Shown: positions 2,176 through 55,052 of the stretch, in pieces | Layout: each line of letters starts with the position of its first letter | Position numbering within the stretch: the stretch's first letter is position 1 | Assembly: GCA_016875875.1 (NCBI GenBank) | Contig: VGOP01000006.1 | Coordinates: forward strand, 72,773-136,772 | Direction: 5' to 3' | DNA length: 64,000 nt | DNA from: Chloroflexota bacterium | GTDB lineage: Bacteria > Chloroflexota > Dehalococcoidia > GIF9 > UBA5629 | Program-made: the position numbers and the translations under genes | The notes under the pieces: generated by a model | What the model saw: the letters and a program-made list of their open reading frames with translations, nothing else | Told to the model about the DNA's origin: nothing | The model's database searches: none

Positions 2176-2204
2176 TTGACTTTAAAAATATCTCAACTTA
2201 TAAT
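2176..2204 (+). promoter_or_regulatory. sigma70-type promoter candidate for the yceD-rpmF operon
   Basis: TTGACT (2176-2181), a 17-nt spacer, then TATAAT (2199-2204), 16 nt upstream of the yceD start. Confidence 0.6.
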
Positions 2205-2219
2205 GAGCCGAGATCATAA

Positions 2220-2744
2220 ATGTTAATAGATAGATTTAACATTGGTGTTTCCCAGTTACTCAAGGAACCGATAGGCGCAAGCTGTAGCTATCAGATAGAC
2301 GGGAGCCTCGATACGGACGACATAAATTCCGTAAAGGGAGCTATAATCTTAACCCGCACCAATCGCGGCATCGTGGTTAAAGGTGAGATGAAAACCTTAG
2401 TAACAGGAATTTGCAGTCGGTGCCTCAAACTGATTGATTATAAAGTAATCTATGACTTTGAAGAGGAATGTCTTCCTAGCGTAAGCACATCAGAAGACCT
2501 ATCTTCACCCGGTCAGTCTGATAACCTTATTATTGATGAGAGTCACATGCTGGACTTAAGCGAAGTGATACGCCAATATGCCTTATTGGCCATGCCTGCC
2601 AAGCCACTTTGCCGTCTAGATTGCGCTGGAATTTGTTTATCCTGCGGGCACGACCTCAACCAAGGTCGCTGTCAGTGCCCGTCTCAGACTCATGACCAAC
2701 GCTGGTCAAAACTAATTCGCTTGGGGAAGGAGAGTAAAACTTAA
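2220..2744 (+). CDS. yceD: YceD/DUF177 family protein (23S rRNA accumulation protein)
   Basis: 174 aa with C-terminal Cys clusters (CRLDCAGICLSCGHDLNQGRCQC). It sits immediately upstream of rpmF, the conserved yceD-rpmF pairing. Confidence 0.8.
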   Translation: MLIDRFNIGVSQLLKEPIGASCSYQIDGSLDTDDINSVKGAIILTRTNRGIVVKGEMKTLVTGICSRCLKLIDYKVIYDFEEECLPSVSTSEDLSSPGQSDNLIIDESHMLDLSEVIRQYALLAMPAKPLCRLDCAGICLSCGHDLNQGRCQCPSQTHDQRWSKLIRLGKESKT

Positions 2745-2942
2745 ATGGCGTTGCCAAAGAGAAAATATGCTAAATCGCGGCAGGGGAAAAGGCGCAGCCA
2801 CCTAGCTCTTAGCATCCCTAAACTGGTTGATTGCCCTCAATGTCACACTCCCAAATTACCTCATCATGTTTGCCCCACCTGTGGTACTTATGCAGGAAGA
2901 GAAATGGTTGAAATTAAGGCTCCAAAGAAAACATCTAGCTAG
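2745..2942 (+). CDS. rpmF: 50S ribosomal protein L32
   Basis: MALPKRKYAKSRQGKRRSH plus the zinc ribbon CPQC...CPTCG. Confidence 0.95.
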   Translation: MALPKRKYAKSRQGKRRSHLALSIPKLVDCPQCHTPKLPHHVCPTCGTYAGREMVEIKAPKKTSS

Positions 2943-3044: not shown

Positions 3045-3989
3045 ATGGTAGAAGCAATAAAAGTCGCTTATGTTTTCCCCGGACAGGAATCCCACTCCGT
3101 AGGCATGGGGTTAGACCTTTACGTCCATTACTCTTCAGCCCGACAGATTTTCGACGAAGTTGACAAAACTCTGGGCTTCTCTCTATCTCGCGTATGCTTT
3201 GAAGGCCCTCAAGACGACCTCAGGCAGACCGTCAATGTCCAACCAGCAGTATTAGCCACAAGCGTTGCCTGCCTGAGAGCAGCTCAGGAGGTTAGCAACA
3301 ACGGCATACCAGAGCCCACTTTCGTCGCTGGACATGACGTGGGCACCTACGCAGCCCTGGTAGCTGCTGGCGCTCTCAGCTTATCTGATACCGTGCGTTT
3401 GATTCGCGAGAGAGGCCGATTAATGAACGAAGCCGGACAAAGAACAGCCGGTGGCATGGTGTCTATGACCGGGCTAGATATAGAAGTCTTCAAGAACATC
3501 TGCTTCTCCACAGGTGTTGAGATTGCCTATATTGACGCTCCAGACCAGGTCACCATCAGCGGAACCCAAGAAAGCCTGACTAAAGCCAAGAGGCTAGCAC
3601 AGATAAAGGGGGCTCGCCGCATCCTCCCACTGAGGGCAAGCGGACCTTTCAATTCCACATTAATGGAGCCGGCCATAGAAAGGCTAAGAAATACCATCTC
3701 GGAGTTCACCTTTAATAAACCATCAGTCCCTATTGTGGCTAATGTTGCTGCGCAGCCGCTTACTGACCTGGAAGCGATAAAGGAGGAGCTGGTTAGCCAG
3801 ATTGTCCGCCCGGTTCAATGGCAGCAATCTGTTGAAACTATGATCGCCCGAGGTGTAACCACCTTCTTTGAGATGGGGCCTGGTGAGGCACTAGCCAAGT
3901 TGATTAAGCGAATCAGCCCCGGAGCACAGACCTTTAACATCAGCAGCGCTCAAACCATCAGCGAAATAACAAGATGGCGCAGAGGATAA
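3045..3989 (+). CDS. FabD-like acyltransferase domain protein (malonyl-CoA:ACP transacylase fold, catalytic residues substituted)
   Basis: Collinear by eye with E. coli FabD: FPGQ..., ...ERGRLM, ...PVQWQQSVE..., ...EMGPG. GHSLGE is replaced by GHDVGT (D98, nt 3336-3338). The His of the PSH motif is replaced by Asn (N203, nt 3651-3653). Confidence 0.75.
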   Translation: MVEAIKVAYVFPGQESHSVGMGLDLYVHYSSARQIFDEVDKTLGFSLSRVCFEGPQDDLRQTVNVQPAVLATSVACLRAAQEVSNNGIPEPTFVAGHDVGTYAALVAAGALSLSDTVRLIRERGRLMNEAGQRTAGGMVSMTGLDIEVFKNICFSTGVEIAYIDAPDQVTISGTQESLTKAKRLAQIKGARRILPLRASGPFNSTLMEPAIERLRNTISEFTFNKPSVPIVANVAAQPLTDLEAIKEELVSQIVRPVQWQQSVETMIARGVTTFFEMGPGEALAKLIKRISPGAQTFNISSAQTISEITRWRRG

Positions 3990-5213
3990 TTGCTGCACGC
4001 CAGACCACAGATGTGGCAACTGCGCTTAACCAGACCGGTCAAATCTCGGGGTATGGCCAAAATGCTAAAGCCTAGCTTGCCCCCCAAAACTGCTGCCATC
4101 TGTAACCACTGCGATAAGAAATCCGCCCTCATCTCCAAGTCCCTTGGTCTATGTGCTGATTGTATCCACCACGATTTCCAAAAGGTCGAGCCCACAATCC
4201 AGGAAGCACATCAGAAATCAAGGCAGTCCTTTAACCTACCGCTACAACCACCAAAGACAATAAATGGCGTTGCTTGCCACCTATGCCTTAATGAATGCCA
4301 ACTTCCAGAAGGGCAAAGGAGTTACTGTGGCATACGCATAGCCGTCTCAGGGAAGCTCACTGGTGCCACGGCAGAGAAAGGCAATGTAAGCTGGTACTAT
4401 GACCCATTACCTACAAATTGCGTTGCCGACTGGGTCTGCCCTGGCGGCACAGGTTCAGGGTATCCTGACTTCGCTTATTGCCCAGGTCCAGAGCACGGTT
4501 ATAATAATCTCGCCGTTTTCTATCAAGCTTGCTCTTTTGATTGCCTCTTCTGCCAGAATTGGCACTACCGATCAGCAGCAATAAAGCAAGACTGGGTTAG
4601 CCCCTTGGAACTAGCTGGTGCAGTTGACGACCGAACCTCCTGCATCTGCTATTTTGGTGGCGACTCAACACCCCAATTACCCCATGCCCTACGTGCTTCA
4701 CGTCTGGCATTAGATAGAAATAAAGGGCGCATCCTCCGCATTTGCTGGGAAACCAACGGCTCAATGCATCCAGCTTTACTCAAGCAAGCGGCTAAGCTTT
4801 CACTTGATTCCGGCGGATGCATCAAATTTGATCTTAAAGCTTGGGACGAGAAGTTACACATCGCCCTTTGCGGCGTAAGCAACAAGAGAACGTTAGACAA
4901 CTTCAGCCTTCTCGCCGGCTATGCAAGAAAAAGACCTGAGCCGCCTTTTCTCATAGCCAGTACCTTGCTAATTCCTGGCTATATAGCCGAACAGGAAGTA
5001 TCCAATATCGCCAAATTTATCGCCTCTTTAGACCCGAATGTACCTTACGCTCTTCTCGCTTTCCACCCTGATTTCTTGATGACTGACTCGCCAACTACCT
5101 CGCTGCAGCATGCAGAGCGATGCTTAAAAGCAGCTAAAGAGGCCGGGTTATGCCGGGTACAGCTAGGAAACGTTCATTTGTTGAGGAATGAATATCAGAA
5201 TGGCTGGATTTAG
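3990..5213 (+). CDS. radical SAM protein, PflA-like / AmmeMemoRadiSam-like, with an N-terminal zinc-ribbon
   Basis: CxxxCxxC radical SAM motif CSFDCLFCQNW. Upstream motif CHLCLNECQLPEGQRSYCGIR. N-terminal CNHC...CADC. The start is uncertain: TTG 3990, ATG 4010 or ATG 4053. Confidence 0.7.
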   Translation: MLHARPQMWQLRLTRPVKSRGMAKMLKPSLPPKTAAICNHCDKKSALISKSLGLCADCIHHDFQKVEPTIQEAHQKSRQSFNLPLQPPKTINGVACHLCLNECQLPEGQRSYCGIRIAVSGKLTGATAEKGNVSWYYDPLPTNCVADWVCPGGTGSGYPDFAYCPGPEHGYNNLAVFYQACSFDCLFCQNWHYRSAAIKQDWVSPLELAGAVDDRTSCICYFGGDSTPQLPHALRASRLALDRNKGRILRICWETNGSMHPALLKQAAKLSLDSGGCIKFDLKAWDEKLHIALCGVSNKRTLDNFSLLAGYARKRPEPPFLIASTLLIPGYIAEQEVSNIAKFIASLDPNVPYALLAFHPDFLMTDSPTTSLQHAERCLKAAKEAGLCRVQLGNVHLLRNEYQNGWI

Positions 5214-5652
5214 ACGGATAGCCAGGACTATTGCTCTACAGACGCTTTACGAGCTTGATTGTTCGGCTCACAAGCCGGATGAGATTTTGACTCGCTTGCT
5301 AGAGGGAAAAGCCCTGCCTGGCGAAGCAGCCGATTTCGCCAGAAGCTTAGTTAATGGAGTCCTTAAGAACAAGAAAAATATCGATGATATGATTCGAAGG
5401 TTCGCTCCCGCCTTTCCCGTCAACCAAATAGCCCCTATAGATAGAAATATTCTCCGCCTTGCCATTTTTGAGATTTTATTCGATAATAGAGTTCCAGTCA
5501 AAGCAGCTATTAATGAAGCTGTTGAGCTGGCTAAGAGTTTTGGTGGTGATACTTCTCAAAAATTTGTCAACGGGGTTTTGGGCTCAGTAGTCAATGCTGG
5601 CATGCAGCAAGAGAACCGACAGGAAGCGATTAAAGAAACTGAACAAACCTGA
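5188..5652 (+). CDS. nusB: transcription antitermination factor NusB
   Basis: RRIARTIALQTLYELD ... DRNILRLAIFEIL ... INEAVELAKSFGG ... FVNGVLG are NusB hallmarks. The ATG at 5200 is an alternative start. Confidence 0.9.
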   Translation: MNIRMAGFRRIARTIALQTLYELDCSAHKPDEILTRLLEGKALPGEAADFARSLVNGVLKNKKNIDDMIRRFAPAFPVNQIAPIDRNILRLAIFEILFDNRVPVKAAINEAVELAKSFGGDTSQKFVNGVLGSVVNAGMQQENRQEAIKETEQT

Positions 5653-5669: not shown

Positions 5670-5927
5670 ATGACACAAATTCCAGATAAGCTCAAGAAGA
5701 TGATTGCAGAGCAACTCGGCGTTGACGAGGAATCCATAGAGCCTTCGGCATCCTTTGTTGACGACCTCAATATCGACCCATCCGATTTGGCCGAGCTTAT
5801 CACCGCCATAGAACAGGAATTCAGCACACCAAGACGCAAGTTGGAAATATCAGACGAAGATACCGAAAAAATCGTTACCGTTCAGGACCTCATTGACTGC
5901 CTTCACGACTACGGCATAGAAGATTAA
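5670..5927 (+). CDS. acyl carrier protein-like protein (non-canonical Ser motif)
   Basis: Aligns with AcpP (KKMIAEQLGV...ASFVDDL...AELI.AIEQEF...VTVQDLIDCL). DLGADSLD is replaced by DLNIDPSD. Confidence 0.7.
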   Translation: MTQIPDKLKKMIAEQLGVDEESIEPSASFVDDLNIDPSDLAELITAIEQEFSTPRRKLEISDEDTEKIVTVQDLIDCLHDYGIED

Positions 5928-6051
5928 ATGCTCTTGATAATCCCACTTGTAGCATTCTAAGCATTCCTGCGTGTCACCAGCCTAGGGGTGACCATGTGGT
6001 TTTAATTTGCGTGGTGGGTCACCTCTGGGCAGGTGCCACCTAGAAGAGCAG

Positions 6052-54218: not shown

Positions 54219-55052
54219 CTACTCCTCCATGACAGTTACCGATAGAACATTAGGACCTGTATGTGTGCCGATAACGGGGCTAACATTAGATAGATAGATT
54301 GGGACTTTTGGAAACACAGAGGCGATACGTTTGGCCAACGCCTCAGCTTCAGCTACGTTGGTGCCATACTCCACAGCCAATGCCTTTACCTTGTTGAACT
54401 TCGATGCAAACTCGCAAAGCCAATCCGTAGCCTTAGCTCTCGAGCGCACTCTGGCAAAAGGAAAAGCTACACCATCTTTTATACCAAGGATAGGATTCAT
54501 CTTAAGCATCGACCCCATTAAAGCCTGTACTTTGCCGATGCGTCCTCCTCTGGCCAAATACTCGAGGGTATCAAGTGTAATTCGGATATGTATTCGTGGG
54601 ATGGTTTTTGATATCATACCGACAAGCTCGCTGAGGTTGGCTCCAGATAGAGCTCTTTTGGCTGCCTCCATAACCAATAGTCCTTGCCCCATTATACCCA
54701 GTGTAGAATCGACAATTTCCACCTGGCACTTTCTCTTCATTAGATTTACACCCTGTACCGCTGCATCATAGGTGGCGCTCAACTTTCGAGACAGAAACAC
54801 GCCCAGAATTTGGCTATACTTCGCAGCCAGACCATCGAAGACTTCAGCAAAAAAACCAGGGCCAGGGGCAGAGGTAGTAGGCAACGTAGAACTATGCTCT
54901 AACTTCTGGTAAAAGTCCTCAGAGCTCAGGTCAACCCTATCTTTATAGGTCTCATGGCCAAATTGGACATGTAACGGGATTACCGTGATTTCTAAGGCTT
55001 TGACCACCTCAGGTGGTAGGTCAGACACGCTATCAGTAACAAGCTTAACCAC
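54219..55052 (-). CDS. DegV-family fatty-acid-binding protein
   Basis: VKLVTDSVSDLP...ITVIPLHV...TSAPGPG pattern of DegV. Confidence 0.9.
   Translation of the reverse strand: MVKLVTDSVSDLPPEVVKALEITVIPLHVQFGHETYKDRVDLSSEDFYQKLEHSSTLPTTSAPGPGFFAEVFDGLAAKYSQILGVFLSRKLSATYDAAVQGVNLMKRKCQVEIVDSTLGIMGQGLLVMEAAKRALSGANLSELVGMISKTIPRIHIRITLDTLEYLARGGRIGKVQALMGSMLKMNPILGIKDGVAFPFARVRSRAKATDWLCEFASKFNKVKALAVEYGTNVAEAEALAKRIASVFPKVPIYLSNVSPVIGTHTGPNVLSVTVMEE

What the first reader, a model, noticed from the sequence alone, without database searches (positions are those of the whole stretch)
3045..3989. FabD-like protein in which both catalytic residues are replaced
The protein is collinear with malonyl-CoA:ACP transacylase. 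The nucleophile motif GHSLGE reads GHDVGT (Ser to Asp, nt 3336-3338). The catalytic His of the PSH/AFHS motif reads GPFNS (His to Asn, nt 3651-3653). The malonyl-binding Arg (ERGRLM) and the GQ of the oxyanion region (FPGQESH) are retained. The usual partners plsX, fabH and fabG are absent from this rpmF-linked cluster. The neighbours are instead a zinc-ribbon radical SAM enzyme and an ACP-like protein with a shifted Ser. This points to a pseudo-enzyme, or to a transacylase fold repurposed for binding or a different chemistry.
Basis: partly seen in the sequence, partly recalled or inferred. Interest (0 to 1): 0.6.

Follow-up and report, generated by a model that had tools for sequence, protein, structure and literature searches.

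The report
Dead FabD kept with serine-less ACP
An uncultured lake Dehalococcoidia bacterium that cannot make fatty acids keeps, under very strong selection, a copy of the fatty-acid enzyme FabD without its catalytic serine and histidine, beside a carrier protein that has lost its cofactor site, so the pair must do another, still unknown job.

Summary
ORF 3045-3989 is a full-length FabD orthologue (TIGR00128 284 bits, FabD fold). Ser92 is Asp98 and His201 is Asn203. Arg117, Gln11, Gln63 and Gln250 remain.

It is neither an error nor a relic:
- Of the 120 nearest public protein clusters, 77 carry D/N. Most others are G/H, G/Y or D/Y intermediates linked by single-nucleotide steps.
- dN/dS within the genus is 0.06, as low as rpmF. 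The gene evolves three times slower than the canonical FabD2 paralogue in the same genomes.
- The phosphopantetheine-groove floor is rebuilt with new invariant residues (N160Y, N162D, G165D). The ACP-docking Lys/Arg residues remain.
- The nusB-linked ACP has lost its Ser (DPSD here, DPPD in sister species).

The genome shows no other FabD or ACP, no ketosynthase and no PPTase. It has FakA, 5 FakB and 5 PlsY, so it scavenges fatty acids. Sister species with a complete second fab cluster keep the dead copy too.

Best reading: a pseudo-transacylase/apo-ACP pair with a function independent of fatty-acid synthesis; mechanism unknown. The adjacent radical SAM gene is decaying in relatives and is not part of it. 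The scan met this clade before on other DNA (e1-4650278). No paper was found.

The parts
2176..2204 (+). Promoter-like site (TTGACT-17-TATAAT, 11 of 12) ahead of yceD; likely operon start
   Evidence: This is a consensus match only; the number of sites is not above shuffles.
2220..2744 (+). yceD (DUF177, large-subunit rRNA accumulation protein)
   Evidence: PF02620, E 8e-25. Syntenic in all relatives.
2745..2942 (+). rpmF (ribosomal protein L32)
   Evidence: ORF and orthologues. dN/dS 0.050.
3045..3989 (+). FabDx: FabD orthologue with the catalytic dyad replaced (pseudo-transacylase)
   Evidence: TIGR00128 283.7 bits. PDB alignments. FabD fold. dN/dS 0.061.
3336..3338 (+). Codon GAC = Asp98, at the position of nucleophile Ser92
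   Evidence: D in 77 of 77 DN-type clusters. Codon path AGY>GGY>GAY.
3651..3653 (+). Codon AAT = Asn203, at the position of catalytic His201
   Evidence: N in 77 of 77. Codon path CAY>TAY>AAY.
3087..3095 (+). E15-S16-H17: GQGSQ loop changed to GQESH (G12E, Q14H in E. coli numbering)
3528..3545 (+). Y162-I-D164-A-P-D167: rebuilt floor of the former phosphopantetheine groove (N160Y, N162D, G165D)
   Evidence: D164 and D167 in 77 of 77. The role of N160/N162/Q166 is taken from bioRxiv 10.1101/2020.05.15.098798.
3411..3413 (+). Arg123 = retained malonyl-carboxylate-binding Arg117
   Evidence: Invariant in all 48 sequences compared and in 77 of 77 DN clusters.
3990..5213 (+). Radical SAM gene (weak AmmeMemoRadiSam-like, CSFDCLFC cluster); a dispensable passenger, not part of the system
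   Evidence: PF04055 and TIGR04337 at 78 bits, below the cut-off of 220. Truncated or absent in most congeners.
5188..5652 (+). nusB, sitting between fabDx and acpX as in the whole order
   Evidence: PF01029, E 2e-36. Synteny.
5670..5927 (+). ACPx: the only PP-binding-family gene of the genome, with a degenerate attachment motif
   Evidence: PF00550. Single hit in the genome. dN/dS 0.084.
5775..5786 (+). D36-P37-S38-D39 in place of D35-S36-L37-D38 of AcpP
   Evidence: Alignment. Congeners read DPPD, APPD or DASD.
5973..5992 (+). Weak terminator-like hairpin after acpX
   Evidence: Consensus match only.

Best explanation
FabDx is the orthologue of the rpmF-linked malonyl-CoA:ACP transacylase of Dehalococcoidia. 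It has stopped being a transacylase and is kept as a folded protein with a function independent of fatty-acid synthesis, together with the nusB-linked ACP, which has become a permanent apo-protein.

Shown:
- The Ser-His dyad and the Asn-Asn floor of the phosphopantetheine groove are replaced, and the replacements are themselves fixed.
- The basic ACP-docking residues of FabD (K189/R190, K286/R287, L192 equivalents) are kept. So are the acidic docking residues of ACP helix II (D35, D38, E41 equivalents).
- Both genes are under purifying selection as strong as that on ribosomal protein genes.
- Both persist in species with and without a complete fab cluster.
- In this genome no ketosynthase, PPTase, second ACP or second FabD was found, while a fatty-acid kinase/PlsY scavenging route is present.

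Inferred:
- FabDx still docks ACPx through the ancestral electrostatic interface, but no prosthetic arm enters the tunnel.
- The rebuilt acidic tunnel (E15, H17, D98, Y162, D164, D167, N203, next to the retained R123) either locks the protein in one conformation or binds a small ligand.
- The complex acts by binding (regulatory or structural), carrying on a second role that the ancestral FabD/ACP pair already had or acquired after FabD2/ACP2 took over catalysis.
For: - Dyad loss by formal alignment and fold.
- Fixation across the clade: 14 of 14 genomes of the genus, and 115 of the 120 nearest public clusters are degenerate (DN 77, GY 21, DY 10, GH 6, GN 1).
- The degenerate forms make one clade on the tree (SH-aLRT 92). 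The intermediates are linked by single-nucleotide steps.
- Selection: dN/dS is 0.061 for FabDx and 0.084 for ACPx, against 0.050 for L32, 0.126 for NusB, 0.131 for L9 and 0.188 for YceD. dN of FabDx is lower than dN of canonical FabD2 in 21 of 21 species pairs, 0.071 against 0.206. Omega is 0.07 in species without a fab cluster and 0.04 in species with one.
- Internal control: the adjacent rSAM gene decays in the same genomes.
- Sites invariant in 27 canonical sequences but replaced here are nearly all active-site or groove residues, and the new residues are invariant in 77 DN clusters.
- Docking residues are retained on both partners, mapped with the AcpP-FabD structure paper.
- ACPx lacks any Ser at the site in six congeners.
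- Genome inventory: no strong KS, no PPTase, one PP-binding gene. FakA, 5 DegV and 5 PlsY are present.
- Four sister genera (G014, G017, G018, G020) show no KS, PPTase or PlsX, yet keep FabDx and ACPx.
Against: - No direct evidence for a FabDx-ACPx complex, and no expression data (no RNA run was listed).
- The retained Lys/Arg residues also bind the CoA nucleotide in real FabD, so their retention does not prove ACP docking.
- ACP Leu37 and its FabD pocket residue I136 both changed. This could mean co-adaptation or loss of the contact.
- The invariance of the new acidic pocket residues suggests a specific ligand or chemistry rather than a mere scaffold.
- PlsX, which normally needs holo-ACP, is still present in this genome, and this is unexplained.
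- All genomes are MAGs. Absence of KS or PPTase rests on 77-99% complete bins, although it repeats across many of them.
Confidence: 0.6

Rival explanations
1. FabDx is a neo-enzyme or small-molecule/metal sensor. The former active-site tunnel has been rebuilt into a new acidic site (E15, H17, H97, D98, Y162, D164, D167, N203) beside the retained Arg123, Gln14, Gln66 and Gln252. This site binds a cation, a metal or a new carboxylate or CoA-type ligand, and either carries out non-covalent chemistry or reports the ligand's level. ACPx may be irrelevant to it.
For: The replacement residues are invariant in 77 DN clusters. D164 and D167 appear early in the series and stay fixed through the GH, GY, DY and DN forms. 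Positions 98 and 203 kept evolving directionally (G to D, Y to N) rather than drifting. Arg117, Gln11, Gln63 and Gln250 equivalents are invariant in all 48 sequences. The genome encodes five carboxyltransferases, so carboxylated acyl-CoAs are probably made.
Against: Position 98 is Gly in a quarter of the clade, and position 203 is H, Y or N, so no single catalytic residue set is shared by the whole clade. No known enzyme family has this site. No coordinates were available to show that the residues form one site. The tight co-retention and similar constraint of ACPx suggest that the partner still matters.
Confidence: 0.25
2. The pair works in ribosome biogenesis or translation control. This would resemble human MCAT, a FabD orthologue that is a bona fide assembly factor of the mitochondrial small ribosomal subunit, and mitochondrial ACP, which sits in ribosome-assembly and respiratory complexes. 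Its place in the yceD-rpmF-...-nusB operon would then be functional.
For: MCAT binds rRNA h31 and blocks h42 docking in mtSSU intermediates (PMC9892005, read; PDB 8csp matches the model at TM 0.73). The operon yceD-rpmF-fabDx-nusB-acpX is kept intact in every genome examined, even after fatty-acid synthesis is lost. Constraint equals that on rpmF.
Against: Linkage of fabD and acp to yceD-rpmF is ancestral in bacteria, and the nusB insertion is order-wide, so synteny is inherited rather than new. FabDx is not notably basic: median pI 6.0 against 5.45 for canonical forms, with a net charge of about -3. There is no evidence that bacterial FabD binds ribosomes. The mitochondrial ACP roles known to me need the acyl-phosphopantetheine arm, which is missing here.
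Confidence: 0.1
3. FabDx is still a malonyl or acyl transferase that uses Asp98 (acyl-aspartate) or another residue, and it loads the shifted Ser38 of ACPx.
For: It scores above the TIGR00128 cut-off. Arg117 and the oxyanion Gln are retained. This genome's ACPx has a Ser one residue downstream. PlsX is retained.
Against: Close relatives have Gly at position 98. Six congeners have no Ser in the ACP motif. No PPTase was found in this genome or in nine other degenerate-only genomes. No ketosynthase is present to use malonyl-ACP. The Asn-Asn floor that holds the phosphopantetheine arm is gone. Species that do make fatty acids carry a separate canonical FabD2/ACP2/AcpS set.
Confidence: 0.03
4. FabDx is a decaying relic of a lost pathway, or an assembly or sequencing artefact.
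For: The pathway is absent from the genome. Both catalytic residues are lost.
Against: Intact ORFs in every genome examined. dN/dS is 0.06. FabDx evolves slower than the active paralogue. The neighbouring rSAM gene shows what real decay looks like in the same locus. Independent contigs from several runs and habitats give the same residues.
Confidence: 0.02

Closest known systems
Bacterial FabD, malonyl-CoA:ACP transacylase (TIGR00128, EC 2.3.1.39; E. coli 1MLA, 2G2Z, 6U0J)
   Same: - Orthologous descent and the same length.
- Same two-subdomain fold, TM 0.76-0.79.
- 35-40% identity.
- Same rpmF-linked locus.
- Arg117, Gln11, Gln63, Gln250, His91, K189/R190, K286/R287 and L192 equivalents are kept.
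   Different: - Ser92 is Asp and His201 is Asn.
- Other replacements: G12E, Q14H, L93V, E95T, N160Y, N162D, G165D, A199P, V280 variable.
- No holo-ACP, PPTase or ketosynthase in the genome.
- FabDx persists alongside a separate canonical FabD2 in sister species.
Human mitochondrial MCAT as small-subunit ribosome assembly factor (PMC9892005; PDB 8CSP-8CSS)
   Same: A FabD-family protein with a documented second role that does not use transacylation. It shows that the fold can act by binding.
   Different: MCAT keeps its catalytic residues and its enzymatic role. No ribosome link has been shown for FabDx, and FabDx is not basic.
Trans-AT PKS acyl hydrolases and trans-ATs (PksD 8AW0, PksC/PksE, DisD)
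   Same: Free-standing FabD-fold proteins diverted to another task. They were recovered as structural and sequence neighbours.
   Different: They keep the Ser-His dyad and act on holo-ACP thioesters inside PKS clusters. No PKS genes are seen at this locus.
Dead FabD / Ser-less ACP pairs noted earlier by this scan (same Dehalococcoidia clade: e1-4650278; Dependentiae: e1-3588495, e1-3015436)
   Same: The same phenomenon: a FabD without its nucleophile beside an ACP without its Ser, conserved in lineages said to lack fatty-acid synthesis.
   Different: These are unchecked AI notes. The Dependentiae proteins also lack the Arg, and I did not examine them. This report adds the link to KS/PPTase loss, the paired rate test against FabD2, the stepwise S>G>D and H>Y>N series, and the groove-floor remodelling.

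Membership tests
FabD / malonyl-CoA:ACP transacylase (TIGR00128, EC 2.3.1.39) | Sequence match to the equivalog model above its curated cut-off | tested here: met
   283.7 bits against a cut-off of 260.9. PF00698 at 120 bits.
FabD / malonyl-CoA:ACP transacylase (TIGR00128, EC 2.3.1.39) | Alpha/beta-hydrolase-like core plus ferredoxin-like subdomain | tested here: met
   The AF2 model matches 3h0p, 6u0j and 1mla at TM 0.76-0.79, E about 1e-25.
FabD / malonyl-CoA:ACP transacylase (TIGR00128, EC 2.3.1.39) | Nucleophilic Ser in GHSxG (Ser92) | tested here: not met
   GHDVG, Asp98. D or G across the clade.
FabD / malonyl-CoA:ACP transacylase (TIGR00128, EC 2.3.1.39) | Catalytic His (His201) | tested here: not met
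   GPFNS, Asn203. N, Y or H across the clade.
FabD / malonyl-CoA:ACP transacylase (TIGR00128, EC 2.3.1.39) | Arg117 for the malonyl carboxylate and Gln11 of the oxyanion loop | tested here: met
   R123 and Q14 are invariant.
FabD / malonyl-CoA:ACP transacylase (TIGR00128, EC 2.3.1.39) | Asn160/Asn162/Gln166 floor of the phosphopantetheine groove | tested here: not met
   Y162, D164 and Q168: only the Gln is kept. Residue roles are from the paper read.
FabD / malonyl-CoA:ACP transacylase (TIGR00128, EC 2.3.1.39) | A holo-ACP acceptor and a condensing enzyme that uses malonyl-ACP in the same genome | tested here: not met
   - One ACP-family gene, with a degenerate site.
- No PPTase.
- No KS I/II/III; the weak hits are thiolases.
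- The genome is 96.75% complete.
FabD / malonyl-CoA:ACP transacylase (TIGR00128, EC 2.3.1.39) | Malonyl transfer activity | not testable with these tools
   Needs an enzyme assay or fabD(Ts) complementation.
Pseudoenzyme (inactive homologue retained by selection) | Clear homology to an enzyme family, with essential catalytic residues lost | tested here: met
Pseudoenzyme (inactive homologue retained by selection) | Purifying selection and long-term retention | tested here: met
   dN/dS 0.061. Slower than the active paralogue in 21 of 21 pairs. 115 degenerate clusters from many habitats.
Acyl carrier protein (PF00550, TIGR00517) for the neighbour ACPx | Ser36 of the DSL motif for phosphopantetheine attachment | tested here: not met
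   DPSD here. DPPD, APPD, DASD, DPED, DPND and DPDD in relatives. Canonical DSLD in the orthologues of other families of the order.

The most novel reading that the evidence does not exclude
FabD and ACP have an old second function that needs neither the catalytic dyad nor the phosphopantetheine arm. One candidate is a role in ribosome assembly or growth-rate coupling, inherited with the yceD-rpmF operon and echoed by human MCAT and mitochondrial ACP. These Dehalococcoidia lost fatty-acid synthesis, or handed it to a second gene set, and so expose that function in pure form. That would make them a natural separation-of-function mutant.
Probability: 0.15. Interest if true: 0.85.

Novelty: new variant of a known kind. 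Interest (0 to 1): 0.62.

Why it matters
FabD and ACP are textbook housekeeping proteins and drug targets, and they are annotated automatically wherever they occur. This clade, with over 100 protein clusters in lakes, soils, peat, sediments and groundwater, is labelled 'ACP S-malonyltransferase' in every source that names it, yet it cannot be one. Metabolic reconstructions of these Dehalococcoidia therefore wrongly credit them with a step of fatty-acid synthesis.

The dead copy is more constrained than the live paralogue in the same cells, and it survives repeated loss of the whole pathway. This shows a second, essential-looking function of the FabD/ACP pair that nobody has described in bacteria. 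The case also gives a clean evolutionary series (SH, GH, GY, DY, DN) of how an enzyme becomes a pseudoenzyme. Finally, it supplies concrete proteins to express for finding the non-catalytic role, which may relate to the unexplained moonlighting of MCAT and ACP in mitochondria.

Tried and rejected
- RNA evidence: no RNA holder was listed for the locus, so nothing can be said about expression.
- The search of protein representatives was swamped by giant multi-AT polyketide synthases. The nearest single-domain representatives all have Ser and His, so it gave no view of other degenerate lineages. At 50% clustering this clade is merged with canonical FabDs.
- FabZ (PF07977) was not found in almost the whole order, including genomes with ketosynthases. 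It is therefore useless as a marker of pathway loss. The second fab cluster carries an ECH-family gene instead.
- Charge test for an RNA-binding shift: degenerate forms have median pI 6.0 against 5.45, both acidic, so there is no support.
- Promoter and terminator scans gave counts no higher than shuffles. The operon is inferred from gene spacing only.
- The AF2 model is of moderate confidence (pLDDT 77.5, the GQESH loop below 50), and coordinates are not exposed. I could not test whether the new acidic residues cluster in space.
- Origin of FabD2: the tree places it outside the rpmF-linked f1/f2 clade. A duplication at the base of the degenerate clade is not rejected (AU p 0.094), so duplication versus transfer stays open. 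A single origin that includes the f5 genome G028 is not rejected either (p 0.38).
- Weak KS and FabH hits in the genome were checked. They are a thiolase and two thiolase-like proteins fused to a DUF35 OB-fold/zinc ribbon.
- Literature: no paper holds both 'FabD' and 'pseudoenzyme'. Two papers (a preprint and its published version) hold 'Dehalococcoidia' and 'FabD', and I did not read them.
Full report
**What is there.** The ORF at 3045-3989 (+) encodes a 314-aa protein.
- It exceeds the curated cut-off of the FabD equivalog model TIGR00128 (283.7 against 260.9 bits).
- It aligns over its whole length with crystallised FabDs at E about 1e-60.
- An AlphaFold2 model built on 13 orthologues (pLDDT 77.5) superposes on FabD structures at TM 0.76-0.79.

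In the alignment with E. coli FabD (1mla), nucleophile Ser92 is Asp98 (GAC, 3336-3338) and His201 is Asn203 (AAT, 3651-3653). Arg117, Gln11, Gln63 and Gln250 are retained.

**It is not an error.**
- Contigs from four lake-water runs carry the same letters at both codons.
- All 13 other species of the genus have GHD[VM]G and GPFN.
- Among the 120 nearest 90%-identity clusters of the public protein collection, 77 are D/N, 21 G/Y, 10 D/Y, 6 G/H, 1 G/N and only 5 S/H.
- Every source that names these proteins calls them ACP S-malonyltransferase.
- The records are MAGs of uncultured Dehalococcoidia from Lake Tanganyika, the Black Sea, peat, Danish soils and other sites.

**How the site changed.** On a maximum-likelihood tree the degenerate proteins form one clade inside one family of the order (SH-aLRT 92). 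The order is G/Y at the base, then D/Y, then D/N. The wider sample adds G/H forms, and one S/H form that already has GQESH. The codons fit single-nucleotide steps: Ser AGY, Gly GGN, Asp GAY; His CAY, Tyr TAY, Asn AAT.

I compared 27 canonical sequences of the order with the D/N clade. The positions that are invariant in the former and replaced in the latter are almost all active-site residues (E. coli numbering): G12E, Q14H, S92D, L93V, E95T, A134S, N160Y, N162D, G165D, V168T, A199P, H201N, C254P and V280 variable. According to the AcpP-FabD structure paper:
- Asn160, Asn162 and Gln166 form the floor of the phosphopantetheine groove.
- The Gln11 and Leu93 backbone amides form the oxyanion hole.
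- Val280 touches the arm (bioRxiv 10.1101/2020.05.15.098798).

The new residues are themselves fixed. D98, N203, D164, D167, T170 and P256 occur in 77 of 77 D/N clusters, and D164/D167 are present through nearly all the intermediate forms. This is remodelling, not drift.

**Selection.** Within the genus, pairwise Nei-Gojobori dN/dS medians are:

| Gene | dN/dS |
|---|---|
| L32 | 0.050 |
| FabDx | 0.061 |
| ACPx | 0.084 |
| Mfd | 0.096 |
| amidohydrolase | 0.114 |
| NusB | 0.126 |
| L9 | 0.131 |
| YceD | 0.188 |

Seven species of the genus carry both FabDx and a canonical paralogue, FabD2. In all 21 species pairs FabDx has the lower dN (median 0.071 against 0.206). The pairs are not independent, but the direction never reverses. 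Omega is 0.07 among species without a fab cluster and 0.04 among those with one. The locus supplies its own negative control. The radical SAM gene between fabDx and nusB is intact here and in seven of the relatives examined (G001, G016, G017, G022, G023, G025, G029). In eight species of the genus it is cut down to 50-125 aa remnants, and in others it is absent.

**The carrier protein.** The order-wide arrangement is yceD-rpmF-fabD-(rSAM)-nusB-acp, usually followed by mfd on the opposite strand. In families with a canonical FabD the nusB-linked ACP reads DLNADSLDL, and it already carries the five-residue insertion after helix II. That insertion is therefore a lineage trait, not a sign of decay. 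In the degenerate clade the motif reads:
- DPSD (this genome and two others)
- DPPD or APPD (six species, no Ser at all)
- DASD, DPED, APAD, DGSD, DPND, DPDD

Asp35, Asp38 and Glu41 equivalents stay. Leu37 is lost, and its FabD pocket residue I136 becomes Thr, Ser or Gly in the same lineages. On FabDx the ACP/CoA-docking residues K189/R190, K286/R287 and L192 are kept without exception in the D/N clade.

**Genome context.** The genome is 96.75% complete.

| Searched for | Result |
|---|---|
| Acyl_transf_1 genes | one |
| PP-binding genes | one |
| 4'-phosphopantetheinyl transferase | none |
| FabA/FabZ | none |
| Ketosynthase | none; weak hits are a thiolase and two DUF35-fused thiolase-like proteins |
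| FakA-type Dak2 protein | present |
| DegV/FakB | five |
| PlsY | five |
| PlsC-type acyltransferase | one |
| PlsX | present |

This fits a fatty-acid scavenger.

Across 41 genomes the pattern is strict. Every genome with a strong ketosynthase hit also has a Ser/His FabD. The twelve genomes whose only FabD is degenerate have none. Ten of those twelve also show no PPTase. Four sister genera show no PlsX either, yet keep FabDx and ACPx.

In species that do have the pathway, it sits in a separate cluster: KS-AcpS-FabK-FabD2-ECH-PlsX-KS, with a canonical ACP2. The FabD2 topology mirrors the FabDx topology within the genus. FabD2 was therefore inherited vertically and lost several times, and FabDx was already dead while the cell still made fatty acids.

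**Interpretation.** FabDx is an evolutionary member of the FabD family, but it fails the functional definition (Ser, His, groove floor, holo-ACP, pathway). A covalent mechanism through residue 98 is excluded for the clade as a whole, because a quarter of it has Gly there.

The most economical reading is a pseudo-transacylase that still docks its equally disabled ACP through the ancestral electrostatic interface and acts by binding. The fixed acidic lining of the old tunnel leaves room for a ligand- or metal-binding function (rival, 0.25). A ribosome-linked role is an attractive analogy: human MCAT is a small-subunit assembly factor (PMC9892005). But the operon context is inherited and the protein is not basic, so I give it about 0.1. 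Residual transacylase activity and simple decay are contradicted by the data.

**Relation to earlier work.** The scan has met this clade before on another genome (e1-4650278, 'Dead FabD and serine-less ACP pair') and analogous pairs in Dependentiae (e1-3588495, e1-3015436). I re-derived the core claims independently. New here are the link to loss of ketosynthase, PPTase and PlsX, the paired rate comparison with FabD2, the stepwise mutational series, the groove-floor remodelling, and the decay of the rSAM neighbour. I found no publication on it.

Noticed in passing
window 3990-5213 (+); relatives L052-L062: The radical SAM gene (weak AmmeMemoRadiSam-like, with an N-terminal Cys-rich region) is intact here. 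It is reduced to 50-125 aa remnants in eight species of the genus and absent in others. This is gene decay in progress inside a conserved operon.
   Followed up: partly
G000:C3:121189-122145 (outside the window): PlsX is retained (E 2e-91), although the genome shows no PPTase and no ACP with an attachment Ser. It is unclear what PlsX and PlsC use as acyl acceptor or donor here. DegV and PlsY genes lie next to it (C3:116515-117910).
   Followed up: no
window 54225-55049 (-) and four other loci of the genome: Five DegV/FakB paralogues and five PlsY paralogues sit in a 2-Mb genome. This is an unusually expanded fatty-acid uptake and activation set.
   Followed up: no
L034 (G003:C1:552000-564000): The second fab cluster of sister species is KS-AcpS-FabK(NMO)-FabD2-ECH_1-PlsX-KS, with a canonical ACP2. 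FabA/FabZ was not found in most of the order, so an enoyl-CoA-hydratase-family protein may serve as the dehydratase.
   Followed up: no
protein P0226: A D/Y-type FabDx (80% identical) is deposited as 'Candidatus Bathyarchaeia archaeon'. It is probably a mis-binned Dehalococcoidia contig.
   Followed up: no
L118 736-2307 (+), L119 946-2436 (-): Two roughly 500-aa thiolase/KS-III-like proteins are fused to a ChsH2-type zinc ribbon and OB fold (DUF35). In archaea these are separate subunits of the thiolase/HMG-CoA synthase complex.
   Followed up: no
G012:C29:17362-18322: PlsX of one congener is split into two frames (residues 2-50 and 49-322). This may be a frameshift or the beginning of loss.
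   Followed up: no
G002:C9:80270-80623; G005:C3:157953-158306: Two species without ketosynthase and with a Ser-less ACPx (DPPD) still carry an AcpS-type PPTase of about 140 aa. Its substrate is unknown.
   Followed up: no
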